Shown here: piece by piece, positions 12,820 to 17,002 of the stretch
Layout: every line of letters starts with the position of its first letter
How positions within the stretch are numbered: the stretch's first letter is position 1
Assembly (NCBI GenBank): GCA_037308085.1
Contig: CP147779.1
Location: forward strand, 2,528,001-2,592,000
From: Promethearchaeati archaeon SRVP18_Atabeyarchaeia-1
GTDB lineage: Archaea; Asgardarchaeota; Atabeyarchaeia; Atabeyarchaeales; Atabeyarchaeaceae
Length of the DNA stretch: 64,000 bases
Direction: 5' to 3'
Made by a program: the position numbers and the translations under genes
The notes under the pieces: model-generated
Seen by the model: only the letters and a program-made list of their open reading frames with translations
Told to the model about the DNA's origin: nothing
Database searches by the model: none

Positions 12820-13081
12820 CGAGTCGACCACCTAGCAAGATCAGAATCAGAGTGGAGTTGACTACACTTATCAAGATTGCAGTCTCAGAGCCAAACCGCT
12901 TTAATAATCTTACCATGAGAGATTTGATATCGGGTGGAAGCGCGGGATCTCTCCGGAAATACCCGCATAAAGAATCGCCCAGAGGCGGATGTGCAAGAGA
13001 TCACCTACACTCGGACCGCTTCATTGGTCGAAGATGCAGAGCCCCAGCCTCATCAACCCCGACTCGTTATCGCAGAATCAC

Positions 13082-13133
13082 ATGGGCGCTGCGAGGAAGC
13101 CCACTCCCTTCAGGGGCGGGGGGAATCGCAGCG
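13082..13133 (+). mobile_element. IS200/IS605-type left end with a subterminal hairpin, preceded by the candidate target tetramer TCAC (13078-13081)
   Basis: CGCTGCGA(13087-94)...GAAGCCCACTCCCTTCAGGGGCGGG...TCGCAGCG(13126-33) forms a nested inverted repeat. It shares AAGCCCACTCCC with the second left end at ~20634-20646 (minus strand). TATA-like CTTAAATA at 13151. Confidence 0.7.
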
Positions 13134-13189
13134 AGACTCCAATTGGGAGCCTTAAATACTGTGCCCCCTAACATCCTTTGGGAGATACC

Positions 13190-14356
13190 ATGAGAAAGTG
13201 CCTACCTCTCAAATTCTTGGAACCCACGGAAGAAAAGAGGAGAATGCTCAAGCAGACCTACACCACATTCCTCGACATCGTGAAGGAGACCCTCAGCTGC
13301 CTTGGCGGCGCCAAGAGCAGAGCCCAACTCCACAGCAAAACCTACAGAGCGCTGAGAGGCAGGCATCATGTGGCATCCCAGCTCATCATCGAGGCCACAA
13401 GCTACGCGTGGAGCGCAAGGAAGACCATCCGCCGCGGCGGCAGCGGCAGCAGCTTGGAGAAGTGCGTCGTCCGCTTCGATAGACGGCTCTTCAGCTTCAA
13501 GGAGACAAAGAGGAGAAACCCCGTGCTTGTCCTGAGAGCCAGCAACAAGAGAATCGGCCTGCCTATAAACAGGGATGGAGCACACCATCGCCTCCAAGAG
13601 CACATGACCCATGGATGGCAGCTGACCAGCATCATCATGAAGAAGAGTCTGAGGCTGCTCGCCATCCTCTCCAAGGGAACGCCGGAACCTCCAGTGAGGG
13701 CTAACTGGATCGGCGTGGACGTGAACAGCCCGAGGATCGCCACCACCACAGTAGGCCCAGGCTGCGGCGTCCTGAAGCAGGCCTACTTCGGGGTGAGGGT
13801 CGCCACAAGGCAGTTCAACTTCGAGAAGAGGAGGGCAGCACTCCATCAATTCAGGGAAACCTCATCGAGAAGCAAGGCTGGACTAAAGTTGAAGCGCCTT
13901 GGCAAGAGGCAGAGAAACTATGTGCGGACAAGCATCTGGCTCATCGCCAACCTGATCGTGCAGCAGGCAGAAACACTCGGCGCAAACATCGCAGTGGAGA
14001 GGTTGGGACACCTGGGGAAGAGGCGGGGGGAGTGGAGCGCGAAGAGCCGCAGGAAGGTGAACCGCATCCCCTACGGCTTCCTGAGACATGCAGTAAGGCA
14101 CGTGGCTGCGAGGCAGGGCGTGCTGCTCCTCGACGTCGATCCCAGGTACACGTCTCAGATGTGCCCCTACTGTGGGTACACGAGTAAGGCGAACTGGGTT
14201 GGCTACTCCTACTTCAGGTGCAGGGCATGCGGCTTCGAGGCGAACCGCGACCGTGCTGCGAGCCTCAACATCGCCCTCAGGGCGGCCCACACACAGGACA
14301 CATCCTGCACATACAAGGTGGGCCAGTTTCCTGCGGGGAGCGCCTCCGTCAGTTAG
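13190..14356 (+). CDS. tnpB: RNA-guided endonuclease TnpB (IS200/IS605 family); RuvC triad and zinc finger appear intact
   Basis: RuvC-I WIGVDVN, RuvC-II IAVERL, YTSQMCPYCG...FRCRACG zinc ribbon, RuvC-III NRDRAASLNIA. High GC relative to its flanks. No tnpA nearby. Confidence 0.93.
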   Translation: MRKCLPLKFLEPTEEKRRMLKQTYTTFLDIVKETLSCLGGAKSRAQLHSKTYRALRGRHHVASQLIIEATSYAWSARKTIRRGGSGSSLEKCVVRFDRRLFSFKETKRRNPVLVLRASNKRIGLPINRDGAHHRLQEHMTHGWQLTSIIMKKSLRLLAILSKGTPEPPVRANWIGVDVNSPRIATTTVGPGCGVLKQAYFGVRVATRQFNFEKRRAALHQFRETSSRSKAGLKLKRLGKRQRNYVRTSIWLIANLIVQQAETLGANIAVERLGHLGKRRGEWSAKSRRKVNRIPYGFLRHAVRHVAARQGVLLLDVDPRYTSQMCPYCGYTSKANWVGYSYFRCRACGFEANRDRAASLNIALRAAHTQDTSCTYKVGQFPAGSASVS

Positions 14357-15273
14357 GATAGGTACATCTCTAATATCGCAATAATAGTATGCGCTCTTAT
14401 TTCACTGCTTCTTGCGTCTCATGCGCATTAGGGCTGCTACAATGACCAGAAGGGCAGCAACTGCTCCGCCGGCAATCAATACAAGTGTCAGCGGTATGCC
14501 GACCGGCTCAACAGCATACGAGCTCAGTGTGTAGTTCACTGTTAATCCGTAGGAGTCGTGGTATCTCGACATAAGTAGGATGCCTGTCGGTTTGTCCACG
14601 TATGCAACAAAGTGTCTAACATATATGGGGCTCTCCTCGACTGTTCCGTTAATGTAGTTGGCTGTCCAGTATCGCCCAGCAATATGATAGTTTGAGACCG
14701 TCGAGTTGAACTTCCAACCTGAACCAGGGTACAGTGCCTCTCCTGCCGAAATGTTCGCGGCCACGAATTGCCAAAGCGAATATTGGTACGCATTCACGTC
14801 GATAGTGTCCGTGAATTTGTATCTGACGGAGCCATCAGGGTTGTACTGGGTTATCTCTAGTATAAGTACTGAACCGCTGACGGCGATGACTTGGATCCTG
14901 ACCGCATTGATAGGATTGCCAGTCTCGGCGAAATCGTAGTAGGCATTTGTTCCCACAACTGCTCCTGGCTTAGTGTAATCTGCTGCGAGCGTTGAAGCAG
15001 TGTTTGCTGACATGACCAGGAGAATCGACAACGCCACCAATGTGCAGGCTATTTCTTTCCTCAAGTCTTGTAACTCTCCGTCTTCGACTTCAGCCAATTC
15101 ATAACGTAGGTGTGGGAAGGGTCTCCGAAGTCTACCTTTCTGACTAACCTTTCAACCTCACTAACGTCTGCCACAGAACCACACTCCTAGATTTTAGTCT
15201 CTAATTGGAGCGTGTGCCATGGGTGCAATATAAGCCTACTGCAAATACAGTAGTTTAACATACCTCCGTCAGT
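14343..15273 (+). repeat. 11-bp direct repeat CCTCCGTCAGT (14343-14353 and 15263-15273) bracketing the insert within the tnpB 3' end
   Basis: Read directly: ...gcgCCTCCGTCAGTtag and ...cataCCTCCGTCAGTaggcgcg. Confidence 0.85.
14402..15064 (-). CDS. Secreted, C-terminally membrane-anchored hypothetical protein
   Basis: N-terminal signal peptide (RKEIACTLVALSILLVMS), beta-rich body with YVDKPTGILL, and a C-terminal TM helix followed by RMRRKKQ. TTG start preceded by GGAG. Confidence 0.8.
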   Translation of the reverse strand: MRKEIACTLVALSILLVMSANTASTLAADYTKPGAVVGTNAYYDFAETGNPINAVRIQVIAVSGSVLILEITQYNPDGSVRYKFTDTIDVNAYQYSLWQFVAANISAGEALYPGSGWKFNSTVSNYHIAGRYWTANYINGTVEESPIYVRHFVAYVDKPTGILLMSRYHDSYGLTVNYTLSSYAVEPVGIPLTLVLIAGGAVAALLVIVAALMRMRRKKQ

Positions 15274-15362
15274 AGGCGCGTTTGGCAAGGTGAAATGTTT
15301 GAAAGACCGCGCCAGACAACCCCGAGTTGCAAGCCCACAAGCCTTAGCGGTGGGTAACTGAC
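15263..15362 (+). ncRNA. Detached TnpB omega-RNA scaffold / IS605 right end; predicted guide follows at 15363-~15382
   Basis: Reads in frame as a TnpB tail, SVSRRVWQGEMFERPRQTTPSCKPTSLSGG*. GGCGCG pairs with CGCGCC; terminal hairpin CCCAC..GC-CTTA-GC-GGTGGG followed by TAACTGAC, a typical right-end terminus. Confidence 0.75.
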
Positions 15363-15478
15363 TTTCGATTTACGCTGGGACTCGATAAAAGCTTAAATAG
15401 CCTAATAGCACGCTCAAAGATGATGGTCTTAGGGTTCGGCAGCTTCGAACCTGAAACAGATCGGTTTCGTGGTAGTGT

Positions 15479-17002
15479 GTGACCTTGTGGCTCCCCAGCA
15501 GAATGGCAGTCTACTTGTCTAAGAGACCGCTCTTGATGCTGCTTCTGATAATGCTCTTTGGGATAGTTTTCAGAGTGTGTATTCTTTACCCGTCATATGC
15601 AAACGGGCTTCCTTCTGGTTTCGATACTTACATTCACGCTGCTTCGGCCTACTTTATTCGCTGGGGCGGTCTTCCGGCTTCGCCCACATCGCCTATTTAT
15701 CCGCCGACATTCCTGATCTTCCTGGCTCTGCTCTACCAGATAACTGGCGTTTTTCCAGTCTACTTAATAGCCCCAGTCGGAATAGCTGTGGATGTGCTTT
15801 GTGCCCCGGCCATTTTCTACATAACACGTCGTCTATCGGGGGGCAGGAATACGGTGGGGCTGCTGGCAGCGTTGTTCCAGACGCTCAACCCGATCACCCT
15901 TGATCTTCTAATTCTTGGCACGATACCTACTATACTTGGGATACTCGAGTTGCTCACAATTATCGCTATTCTGGTGAGCGACCTCAGAAGCAGGGTCCTT
16001 GGAATAGTCTCGATGGGTTTGCTGGGAGGCTTGATCTTCCTAACCAACATTCTGGTGGGGGCTTTCTACGTCTTCTTTGTCGGTATGATCGTTTTCTATG
16101 AGATAATTCTTGGGAGAGGAAACCACTATGCTAAGCCACTATTCCTCTCTCTTCTGATCACAGCAATACCCACAGCCCTTTTCTATCTACCGAATCTGAG
16201 CTACTTCTATGTGGGCGTTCTAGGTGGATCGGAATACTTCATCTGGAATCTTGCGACTTTCATTGTTCTGCCAATTCTAATGTTGCCTATTATCTTCCTC
16301 TACAAAAGGAGTTATGCCAAGAAGTACACGTATGCTCGGAACCAGAATGCCACGCTCCTAAGGCTCTGGTATCTCACAGCCCCTGTGATGGCTCTTGTAT
16401 TCGTCTGGCAAGCTGCCGTTCTTTCGAGGATGTGGCATTTCATTTCTTTCCCGGCTGTAGTTGTCCTTGCCATGATTGTCACCGCGAAGTTCAGGCAGAT
16501 TGGGAAATCTAGGGGTCGAAGAACAGCGGCAGCGCTGACGGCAACGCTTCTCATCGCGTCGGTAGTGACAACTTTCTCTGCTAGTGTGATCATGTTCAAC
16601 ACGTTCTATGAGAACACGCCTGAGAGGATGCAACTCGTGAACTGGATAGAGACCAATACCACTCAGTCAGCGCGGTTTTGCACTGAGGAGGAGTATATCC
16701 CAACCCAGCTAGGTTGGTACGTCATGGGCTTGACAGGCAGAATTGCCTATGAGAGCCTGCCCAGCTTCTCAGAGCCTTTTGAAGTCGGAACAGATATCGC
16801 TCTGCACATGAGGTTGGCGAACAATATAACCGCTCTTACAGCAAACACAACAGATTGGATCAGTGCCGTAAGGTCGCTTCAGGTGTCATACGTAATTCTA
16901 CTGGCGAACAAGATTCACACAAACTATGCGGCGATCTCAAGCAGAATCGTTTTTGCGACATCATTGCACGCAGTGTACAACGTCACCGAGTTTCTCTCCT
17001 GA
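15479..17002 (+). CDS. GT-C-fold (PMT/GT39-like) membrane glycosyltransferase, paralog 1
   Basis: About 12 TM helices, GFDTYIH first-loop motif, YPP, and a C-terminal extracellular domain (VNWIETNT...LQVSYVIL...VYNV). Confidence 0.75.
   Translation: MTLWLPSRMAVYLSKRPLLMLLLIMLFGIVFRVCILYPSYANGLPSGFDTYIHAASAYFIRWGGLPASPTSPIYPPTFLIFLALLYQITGVFPVYLIAPVGIAVDVLCAPAIFYITRRLSGGRNTVGLLAALFQTLNPITLDLLILGTIPTILGILELLTIIAILVSDLRSRVLGIVSMGLLGGLIFLTNILVGAFYVFFVGMIVFYEIILGRGNHYAKPLFLSLLITAIPTALFYLPNLSYFYVGVLGGSEYFIWNLATFIVLPILMLPIIFLYKRSYAKKYTYARNQNATLLRLWYLTAPVMALVFVWQAAVLSRMWHFISFPAVVVLAMIVTAKFRQIGKSRGRRTAAALTATLLIASVVTTFSASVIMFNTFYENTPERMQLVNWIETNTTQSARFCTEEEYIPTQLGWYVMGLTGRIAYESLPSFSEPFEVGTDIALHMRLANNITALTANTTDWISAVRSLQVSYVILLANKIHTNYAAISSRIVFATSLHAVYNVTEFLS

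What the first reader, a model, noticed from the sequence alone, without database searches (positions are those of the whole stretch)
13078..15382. tnpB split from its omega-RNA by a cargo gene between 11-bp direct repeats
Seen: left-end hairpin (13082-13133), then a tnpB with intact RuvC D/E/D residues that stops abruptly at ...TCC GTC AGT TAG. The same CCTCCGTCAGT recurs 920 bp later and continues as a right-end/omega-RNA (15263-15362). Removing 14354-15273 restores one continuous ORF ending SASVSRRVWQGEMFERPRQTTPSCKPTSLSGG*. The intervening DNA holds one intact antisense gene for a cell-surface protein. Known: in IS200/IS605 elements the omega-RNA normally overlaps the tnpB 3' end. Inference: either a cargo-carrying IS605 element (LE-tnpB-cargo-RE), or a step towards domestication in which nuclease and guide RNA are separately encoded, as in the TnpB-to-Cas12/TldR transitions.
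Basis: partly seen in the sequence, partly recalled or inferred. Interest (0 to 1): 0.78.

Follow-up and report, generated by a model that had tools for sequence, protein, structure and literature searches.

The report
Gene cassette docked in TnpB guide-RNA hairpin
A small transposon of an Asgard archaeon is cut in two by a 909-base piece of DNA carrying one surface-protein gene, which was almost certainly inserted by a site-specific integrase into a hairpin of the transposon's guide-RNA gene, a spot used as a docking site by many other mobile pieces in this genome.

Summary
A tnpB-only IS200/IS605 element (13082-15362) is interrupted after CCTCCGTCAGT. The same 11 bases recur 920 bp later, and three uninterrupted copies in this genome carry them once.

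The break lies in the 8-nt loop of a palindrome, GCGCCT-CCGTCAGT-AGGCGC. At least 8 left and 8 right junctions in this genome, and more in Atabeyarchaeia-2, break at this same point. Two of the inserts (26.4 and 18.7 kb) carry a tyrosine integrase beside the right end. The window insert shares their right-arm motif, so it is an integrase-less mini-cassette or a decayed remnant of that family.

Covariation across 21 archaeal tnpB tails shows that the palindrome is stem 1 of the omega-RNA. Its loop pairs with the last six bases before the guide, as in ISDra2. The insertion therefore splits the guide RNA itself:
- TnpB keeps its catalytic D/E/D residues.
- The detached RNA keeps the pseudoknot strand but loses half of stem 1.

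I found no paper describing it.

Interest is moderate to high: a new target class for a known mechanism.

The parts
13078..13081 (+). TCAC target / TAM-like tetranucleotide flanking the left end
   Evidence: 9 of 11 aligned LE flanks end in TCAC just before the element, and one ends in CCAC.
13082..13189 (+). Left end (LE) with subterminal hairpin (stem 13087-13094 / 13126-13133)
   Evidence: Conserved in 11 copies. The DNA fold gives an 8-bp stem.
13190..14356 (+). tnpB, 388 aa, clipped by 27 codons of its usual tail. The stop codon TAG is supplied by the insert.
   Evidence: PF07282 at E = 6e-17. D177, E270, D354 and CPYC/CRAC are present. Full copies are 410 aa and read on to the RE end.
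14340..14345 (+). 5' arm (GCGCCT) of omega-RNA stem 1, which is the left half-site of attB. It is left behind on the tnpB side.
   Evidence: Pairs with AGGCGC. 5 of 6 pairs show compensatory changes in 21 homologues.
14343..14353 (+). attL core: first copy of CCTCCGTCAGT
14354..15262 (.). 909-bp insert (integrase-less cassette or remnant), GC 0.48 against 0.59 for tnpB
   Evidence: Unique in the genome apart from a 76%-identical paralogous coding region. GC values.
14402..15064 (-). Cargo gene: 220-aa membrane-anchored surface protein (231 aa if read from the TTG at 15097)
   Evidence: ORF. The public gene call is 220 aa. The model shows an N-terminal TM helix, a beta half-barrel and a C-terminal TM helix, pLDDT 73. 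There are weak LolA/LppX/RseB-like fold hits. Ten paralogues in the genome.
15227..15262 (+). Right arm of the cassette: AT-rich box AATATAAG (15227-15234), GCCTACTG (15234-15241, an inverted copy of CAGTAGGC) and CAGTAG (15248-15253)
   Evidence: The motif is shared with the arms next to the two integrase genes, with four other junctions in G000 and with two in Atabeyarchaeia-2.
15263..15273 (+). attR core: second copy of CCTCCGTCAGT. It contains the stem-1 loop and the pseudoknot strand GTCAGT (15268-15273).
15274..15362 (+). Rest of the omega-RNA scaffold / right end: stem-1 3' arm AGGCGC (15274-15279), internal helices, RE hairpin CCCAC/GTGGG (15334-15338 / 15350-15354) and pseudoknot strand ACTGAC (15357-15362)
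   Evidence: 93-95% identical to other copies. Helices are supported by covariation. The covariance model scores 64.8 bits here, against 88-115 bits for intact copies.
15363..15378 (+). Predicted guide segment (flank TTTCGATTTACGCTGG). The length is inferred from ISDra2.
   Evidence: Position is inferred from the RE boundary and the ISDra2 layout (PMC10097598). Not tested.

Best explanation
**What the element is.** The window holds a tnpB-only IS200/IS605-family element at 13082-15362. It inserted 3' of TCAC.

**What happened to it.** A tyrosine-recombinase reaction later placed a 909-bp circular cassette into the element. The cassette carried one surface-protein gene and a short attP. The attB is a palindrome at the tnpB 3' end, GCGCCT-CCGTCAGT-AGGCGC. 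Strand exchange falls in the 8-nt spacer. The identity segment shared by attP and attB (here 11 bp, CCTCCGTCAGT) therefore ends up on both sides of the insert.

**Why that site matters.** This palindrome is the DNA of omega-RNA stem 1. Its loop forms the pseudoknot with the six bases just before the guide. A family of integrative elements uses the hairpin in the way other integrases use tRNA stem-loops, so the multicopy transposon serves as a set of docking sites.

**Where the enzyme comes from.** The window cassette has no integrase. It was either mobilised in trans by the 429/447-aa integrases encoded on the 26.4- and 18.7-kb relatives, or it is what internal deletion left of a larger element.

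**Consequences here.**
- TnpB loses only a dispensable tail.
- The omega-RNA is cut in the stem-1 loop, and its 3' part now lies 920 bp away.
- TnpB guidance at this copy is probably impaired.
- LE and RE stay intact.

**Shown:** the anatomy, the recurrence of the site, the integrases at two inserts, the shared arm motif and the RNA structure.

**Inferred:** that the integrase catalysed this particular insertion, trans-mobilisation versus decay, and the functional state of TnpB and the RNA.
For: 1. Three intact copies carry the 11-mer once and are colinear across it.
2. The same base-exact breakpoint is seen at 8 attL-type junctions (831976, 1529215, 1642481, 1644629, 1709099, 2213719, 2232336 and the window). 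It is also seen at 8 attR-type junctions (714461, 1555627, 1663348, 1711379, 1936886, 2213086, 2768499 and the window). The foreign sequences differ between junctions.
3. Two junction pairs bracket elements of 26.4 kb (1529215-1555627) and 18.7 kb (1644629-1663348). In each, a PF00589 integrase (E = 2e-18 and 2e-17; the two are 91% identical) starts about 80 nt from the core. These are the only two copies of this integrase in the genome. The cargo is a Dcm methylase, a HEPN protein and a Schlafen/AlbA_2 protein.
4. The site is a 6-8-6 palindrome, the usual layout of a tyrosine-recombinase core.
5. The window's right arm (GCCTACTG-N6-CAGTAG-N9-core) is shared with the integrase-proximal arms and with arms in Atabeyarchaeia-2.
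6. Other small single-gene inserts sit at the same site. A VOC-family gene lies there in both Atabeyarchaeia-1 and -2. It is 91% identical in nucleotides although the flanks are unrelated and a flanking orthologue is only 47% identical in protein.
7. The cargo gene is not next to the right-flank orthologue in Atabeyarchaeia-2.
8. Stem 1 and the pseudoknot are supported by covariation: 90% of cells are paired against 68% in shuffles, and 22 of 31 pairs show double changes. The layout matches ISDra2 stem 1/PK.
9. The published study of this organism reports small integrase-less 'mini' elements that circularise at a larger element's att motif (PMC11529989).
Against: - No integrase lies in or next to the window insert.
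- Its left arm (14354-14401) matches no other arm by BLAST.
- No excised circle or empty-site allele was found. The predicted attP junctions are absent from IMG/VR.
- The integrase-bearing elements share only CGTCAGTA between their two junctions, whereas the window shares 11 bp.
- Integrase activity on this site has never been assayed.
- The cargo belongs to a host-like multigene family. A second family member sits in another IS shell in the opposite orientation. That leaves room for a different capture route.
Confidence: 0.8

Rival explanations
1. Cargo-carrying IS605. LE-tnpB-cargo-RE is a functional transposon that moves as one unit by a Y1 TnpA supplied in trans. The cargo position between tnpB and the RE is a designed feature.
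For: - LE and RE are intact.
- The genome has three Y1 TnpA genes.
- Several LE-...-gene-RE composites exist: VOC in G000 and in Atabeyarchaeia-2 at unrelated loci, an S9 peptidase in Atabeyarchaeia-2, and a second surface-protein paralogue at 2125535-2124326.
Against: - The window insert is single-copy.
- No composite is seen twice in one genome.
- The inserts differ but always break at the same recombination core. Two are 18-26-kb islands with their own integrase.
- The TnpA genes are not linked to this IS family, and their ends show no similarity to it.
- This reading does not explain the direct repeat.
Confidence: 0.1
2. Domestication in progress. The nuclease and the guide RNA have become separate genes, as in the TnpB-to-Cas12 or TldR transitions, and the detached RNA is transcribed from its own promoter.
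For: - TnpB keeps D/E/D.
- Its lost tail is dispensable in ISDra2, and a Promethearchaeati LC30 copy ends naturally before stem 1.
- The detached RNA keeps the pseudoknot strand.
- An AT-rich box lies about 30 nt upstream of 15263. It was noted in e1-5499826, and the sequence is confirmed.
Against: - The split is one of many by-products of integration at the same site.
- The arrangement is not conserved in any relative.
- Stem 1 loses its 5' arm.
- The guide still matches only the element's own flank, as in ordinary transposon retention.
- There is no expression evidence.
Confidence: 0.04
3. Two independent IS remnants flank an ancestral host gene, or an ordinary DDE transposon insertion produced an 11-bp target duplication.
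For: The cargo is a host-type family member. 11 bp is within the range of target-site duplications.
Against: - The left and right parts join without gap or overlap into a complete element, apart from the repeat.
- The insert has no terminal inverted repeats and no transposase.
- The same breakpoint is reused by unrelated inserts.
- The gene is absent beside the right-flank orthologue in Atabeyarchaeia-2.
Confidence: 0.03

Closest known systems
Tyrosine-integrase genomic islands and proviruses that integrate into tRNA genes
   Same: - A site-specific recombinase crosses over in the loop of an RNA-gene stem-loop, with the two stem halves as inverted half-sites.
- A short core is duplicated at both junctions.
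- The integrase gene lies next to one junction.
- The cargo includes defence genes.
   Different: - The target is the guide-RNA (omega-RNA) stem 1 of a multicopy selfish transposon, not a single-copy essential tRNA.
- The attP identity covers only 8-11 nt, so the target RNA gene is not rebuilt.
- More than half of the sites in this genome are occupied or scarred.
ISDra2 TnpB-omegaRNA (IS200/IS605; Nakagawa et al. 2023, PMC10097598)
   Same: - The tnpB tail overlaps the omega-RNA.
- Stem 1 is the 5'-most helix of the scaffold.
- The stem-1 loop pairs with the bases just 5' of the guide to form the pseudoknot.
- The C-terminal tail of TnpB is dispensable.
   Different: - Here the scaffold is about 103 nt.
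- The element has no tnpA.
- This copy is interrupted inside the stem-1 loop.
- The target motif is TCAC rather than TTGAT.
mini-Yucahu-i and other integrated MGEs of Atabeyarchaeia (Valentin-Alvarado et al. 2024, PMC11529989)
   Same: Same organism. Small integrase-less elements use the att motif of a larger integrase-bearing element and circularise.
   Different: That paper's main text names AATTAACTTAT as the att motif and does not mention tnpB.
Integron gene cassettes and res-site hunters (Tn5053 family)
   Same: Single-gene cassettes without their own recombinase, or mobile elements that target a recombination-prone site on another mobile element.
   Different: There is no attC/attI or IntI. 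Here the cassette arm seems to carry its own promoter. The target is an RNA-gene hairpin, not a res site.

Membership tests
IS200/IS605 family, tnpB-only (IS1341-like) element | TnpB with RuvC D/E/D and a zinc finger | tested here: met
   PF07282. D177/E270/D354 and CPYC/CRAC are present. The RuvC-III region aligns with Cas12f/TnpB structures.
IS200/IS605 family, tnpB-only (IS1341-like) element | Subterminal hairpins at LE and RE, no terminal inverted repeats, insertion 3' of a fixed tetranucleotide without duplication | tested here: met
   LE alignment with TCAC flanks. RE ends at GTAACTGAC with unrelated flanks. Hairpins.
IS200/IS605 family, tnpB-only (IS1341-like) element | omega-RNA overlapping the tnpB 3' end and running to the RE | tested here: met
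   Met in intact paralogues and in 21 homologues by covariation. In the window copy it is split in the stem-1 loop.
IS200/IS605 family, tnpB-only (IS1341-like) element | Y1 TnpA transposase in the element | tested here: not met
   None lies in the element. Three PF01797 genes lie elsewhere in the genome. This absence is what defines the tnpB-only group.
Tyrosine-recombinase integrative element | Encodes its own integrase | tested here: not met
   The window insert has one ORF with no Pfam hit. The 26.4- and 18.7-kb relatives at the same site do encode PF00589 integrases.
Tyrosine-recombinase integrative element | Identical core at both junctions, inside a palindromic attB that is reused | tested here: met
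   An 11-bp repeat in the window. A 6-8-6 palindrome. More than 15 junctions at the same base.
Tyrosine-recombinase integrative element | Arm sequences shared with integrase-bearing relatives | tested here: inconclusive
   The right arm is shared over about 30-50 nt. The left arm has only a short AGTAGG/TAGGTAC-like motif.
Tyrosine-recombinase integrative element | Excision to a circle / an empty site in the population | not testable with these tools
   attP patterns are absent from IMG/VR. No read data were available.
Cargo-carrying transposon (tIS / composite IS605) | The whole unit, with the same cargo, found at more than one site | tested here: not met
   The insert is single-copy in the genome.
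Domesticated TnpB (TldR / Cas12-like) | Conserved syntenic locus with a separate guide gene and loss of transposon ends or of nuclease residues | tested here: not met
   The ends and D/E/D are intact. The locus is not conserved in relatives.

The most novel reading that the evidence does not exclude
The stem-1 docking site may make multicopy TnpB elements a two-tier cassette system. In this reading, integrases load single-gene cassettes (surface protein, VOC enzyme, peptidase) into the omega-RNA hairpin. The resulting LE-cargo-RE shells are then spread by a Y1 TnpA supplied in trans. Meanwhile the cassette arm's AT-rich box transcribes the detached omega-RNA, which still guides the tail-clipped TnpB. 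That would be a natural trans-encoded TnpB guide.
Probability: 0.12. Interest if true: 0.85.

Novelty: new variant of a known kind. Interest (0 to 1): 0.6.

Why it matters
- **New target class.** This adds the guide-RNA gene of TnpB transposons to the classic targets of integrases (tRNA and tmRNA genes). One selfish element can serve as a harmless, multicopy landing pad for others in Asgard archaea.
- **Annotation.** It explains many 'orphan' omega-RNA ends and truncated tnpB genes in this genome. It also warns annotators that a detached omega-RNA need not mean domestication.
- **Tools and test cases.**
  - A covariation-backed omega-RNA model for a widespread archaeal TnpB clade that is absent from Rfam.
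  - A small natural attB/attP pair plus integrase that could be tested as a recombination tool.
  - Natural stem-1-truncated omega-RNAs for testing what TnpB tolerates.

Tried and rejected
- **Rfam** search of an intact copy and the window copy: no family matched.
- **Empty site in relatives.**
  - The same-genus genome (Promethearchaeati LC30) has a contig that ends inside the left-flank radical-SAM gene.
  - Atabeyarchaeia-2 lacks that gene, and only its right flank is comparable.
  - No orthologous empty site could therefore be read.
- **Metagenome scan** with the cargo protein gave one chromosomal homologue with no IS parts nearby.
- **attP and integrase in IMG/VR.** The predicted attP junctions of three element types and relatives of the integrase were sought there. 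Nothing was found.
- **Second integrase.** A 39%-identical integrase in Atabeyarchaeia-2 is not next to an RE.
- **Duplicated flanks.** An apparent similarity between the flanks of the window copy and the 1709-1711 kb copy covers only about 10 nt, so it is not a duplication.
- **TnpA pseudo-end.** I rejected the idea that TnpA cleaves at the palindrome as a pseudo-end. The breaks are in the loop with a duplicated core, and integrases sit beside them.
- **Single-sequence folds** of the RE were ambiguous. Only the 21-sequence alignment resolved the structure.
Full report
**1. Observation**

The window is G000:C1:2528001-2592000 of a closed 2.81-Mb genome. Earlier notes of this scan identify it as the Asgard archaeon Atabeyarchaeia-1. 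The record titles returned for its relatives agree with that (Atabeyarchaeia-2 CP147780.1; Promethearchaeati LC30).

The sequence and the ORF list show the following.
- TCAC lies at 13078-13081, followed by a left end with an 8-bp hairpin stem.
- A tnpB ORF runs 13190-14356. It matches PF07282 and carries D177, E270, D354 and two CxxC pairs.
- The ORF stops at a TAG directly after CCTCCGTCAGT (14343-14353).
- The same 11-mer recurs at 15263-15273 and runs on into 100 nt that are 93-95% identical to the right ends of other copies.
- Three full copies in the same genome (308673-310037, 1948237-1949582, 1958700-1960044) carry the 11-mer once.
- Joining the two window halves gives a 415-codon frame ending ...SLSGG.
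- The 909-bp insert has the host's GC content (0.48, against 0.59 for tnpB). It encodes one antisense protein.

**2. The breakpoint is a reused site**

Listing every CCTCCGTCAGT in the genome and every right-end module changed the picture.

At exactly this point the tnpB 3' end continues into at least five unrelated sequences:
- type B at 831976, 1644629 and 1709099;
- type C at 1529215 and 2232336, with a C-like sequence at 1642481;
- type D at 2213719;
- the window sequence.

Right-end modules are preceded by foreign DNA at 714461, 1555627, 1663348, 1711379, 1936886, 2213086, 2768499 and in the window.

A covariance-model census gives five modules with the upstream part intact (88-115 bits). 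Eight modules have a foreign left side (46-73 bits; the window scores 64.8).

**3. Integrases**

Two junction pairs bracket large inserts.
- 1529215 to 1555627 is 26.4 kb.
- 1644629 to 1663348 is 18.7 kb.

In both, an antisense ORF of 429 or 447 aa starts about 80 nt from the core. It is a Phage_integrase-family tyrosine recombinase (PF00589, E = 2e-18 and 2e-17). The two proteins are 91% identical and are the only copies in the genome. Each island has exactly one CGTCAGT at each end. The islands carry a Dcm methylase, a HEPN protein and a Schlafen/AlbA_2 protein.

The target reads GCGCCT-CCGTCAGT-AGGCGC. That is a 6-8-6 palindrome, the usual layout of a tyrosine-recombinase core, with the crossover in the spacer.

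The window's right arm (GCCTACTG-N6-CAGTAG-N9-core; GCCTACTG is the inverted copy of the CAGTAGGC half-site) is shared with several other junctions:
- the integrase-proximal arms;
- 714461, 2213086 and 2768499;
- two loci of Atabeyarchaeia-2.

The 11-bp repeat is therefore best read as the duplicated attP/attB identity segment.

**4. Other small inserts and decay**

- A 623-bp insert with a VOC-family gene sits at the same site at 2213086-2213719.
  - The same gene (91% nucleotide identity) sits between an LE fragment and an RE in Atabeyarchaeia-2, at an unrelated locus.
  - There the left junction has been deleted.
  - For scale, the orthologue of the window's right-flank gene is only 47% identical in protein between these genomes.
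- Atabeyarchaeia-2 also has an S9 peptidase gene in an IS shell.
- At 2768499 only about 60 nt of a right arm remain.

Inserts at this site therefore decay by deletion. The window insert, with both junctions intact, is either a mini-element mobilised in trans or an internally deleted remnant. The published study of this organism describes such a 'mini' element for another integrase (PMC11529989). Its main text does not mention tnpB as a target.

**5. What the palindrome is**

I collected tnpB tails from Bathyarchaeia, Hadarchaeota, Jordarchaeia, Aenigmatarchaeota, Methanomethylicota and others and aligned 21 of them.

Counting pairs for a structure I wrote from the alignment gave these whole-structure figures:
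- 90% of cells are paired, against 68% in shuffles and 33-48% for slid partners;
- 22 of 31 pairs show changes on both sides.

By helix:
- The palindrome is a hairpin, with 5 of 6 pairs compensatory.
- Its loop hexamer pairs with the last six bases before the element end. The pair types are GUCAGU/ACUGAC, GUCAAC/GUUGAC, GUAAAC/GUUUAC and GUCAGC/GCUGAC.

Caveat: I extracted the tails by requiring a perfect loop/3'-end match. 20 of the 22 tails long enough to test had one, at homologous columns, so the pseudoknot's 100% pairing is partly by construction.

This layout equals ISDra2 stem 1 plus pseudoknot. There the 116-nt scaffold starts with stem 1, and a TnpB lacking its C-terminal domain still cleaves (PMC10097598). 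No Rfam family matches.

**6. Consequences for this copy**

- The crossover lies in the stem-1 loop.
- tnpB keeps the stem's 5' arm and loses only a tail. A Promethearchaeati LC30 copy ends naturally before stem 1.
- The detached RNA part keeps the loop (the pseudoknot strand), the 3' arm and everything downstream. Only 3 of the 6 stem-1 pairs are rebuilt by the repeat.
- It would need a promoter. An AT-rich box lies at 15227-15234 (sequence; noted in e1-5499826), but it is untested.

I infer impaired, though not necessarily abolished, RNA guidance. LE and RE are intact, and three Y1 TnpA genes exist elsewhere in the genome. Mobilisation of the composite is therefore conceivable but unsupported: the insert is single-copy.

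**7. The cargo**

The 220-aa protein has only seven database homologues and about ten paralogues in this genome. The nearest paralogue is 68% identical at 2700957. The DNA similarity to it is confined to the coding region. A metagenomic homologue is chromosomal, with no IS parts nearby.

The model (pLDDT 73) shows an N-terminal TM helix, a beta half-barrel and a C-terminal TM anchor. There are weak LolA/LppX/RseB-like fold matches.

A second, 35%-identical family member lies in another, more divergent IS shell at 2125535-2124326, in the opposite orientation.

**8. Distribution and literature**

Among 400 Asgard genomes, CCGTCAGTAGGCGCG occurs repeatedly only in the three Atabeyarchaeia-family genomes.

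A full-text search for tnpB, attB and integrase together found no description of this target.

An earlier follow-up of this scan (e1-5499556) reached the same attB reading from the 18.7-kb island. I arrived at it independently before seeing that note.

**9. Verdict**

The best explanation is integrase-mediated docking of a small cassette in omega-RNA stem 1 (confidence 0.8). This is a new variant of a known kind. Interest is 0.6.

Noticed in passing
G000:C1:2125535-2124326 (minus strand; outside the window): A second IS shell has a divergent LE, the first 25 or so degenerate tnpB codons and an RE ending in GCTGAC. It encloses a 225-aa paralogue (35% identity) of the window's surface protein, this time in the sense orientation. 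An inverted near-copy of the core (CCTCCGTCATT) lies on its LE side. Two of about ten family members sit inside IS shells, which looks non-random.
   Followed up: partly
G000:C1:2212986-2214016 and L032 (Atabeyarchaeia-2, G002:C1:2629501-2634000): A VOC/glyoxalase-like gene cassette is 91% identical in nucleotides between two genomes whose orthologues are about 50% identical in protein. In both it lies between an IS left-end fragment and the RE, at unrelated loci. This indicates recent horizontal movement of the cassette or of the composite.
   Followed up: partly
Alignment A3 / model R1 (21 archaeal tnpB tails, loci L047-L077): A covariation-supported omega-RNA model (stem 1, pseudoknot, two internal helices, RE hairpin; about 103-118 nt) for an archaeal TnpB clade found in Asgard, Bathyarchaeia, Hadarchaeota, Aenigmatarchaeota and Methanomethylicota. 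Rfam 15 has no matching family.
   Followed up: yes
G000:C1:1528977-1529225 and 2605489-2606094: MITE-like internal-deletion derivatives of the IS. In the first, 18 nt of LE are fused at a GCTGCGAGG microhomology to tnpB position about 1028. In the second, LE plus 518 nt are fused to stem 1. The first of these carries the 26.4-kb island.
   Followed up: partly
G000:C1:308673-310037: This otherwise full-length copy (86% identical) has a broken tnpB frame (longest open stretch 273 aa), so it is a pseudogene.
   Followed up: no
window 15479-17002 (+): A 507-aa polytopic membrane protein with no Pfam hit starts about 115 nt after the RE. Its Atabeyarchaeia-2 orthologue (47% identity) follows an acyl-CoA-synthetase-like gene instead. 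The predicted TnpB guide abuts its upstream region.
   Followed up: no
L030/L035 (G001:C126, Promethearchaeati LC30): The contig with the orthologue of the left-flank radical-SAM/SPASM gene ends inside that gene. The orthologous site in the closest relative therefore cannot be read, possibly because of a repeat-induced assembly break.
   Followed up: no
G000:C1:1574951-1575063 and 1956883-1957004: Weak matches to the omega-RNA model lie within about 1-2 kb of two of the three Y1 TnpA genes (1573364-1573714 and 1955413-1769). These may be the guide RNAs of the tnpA-bearing IS605 elements.
   Followed up: no
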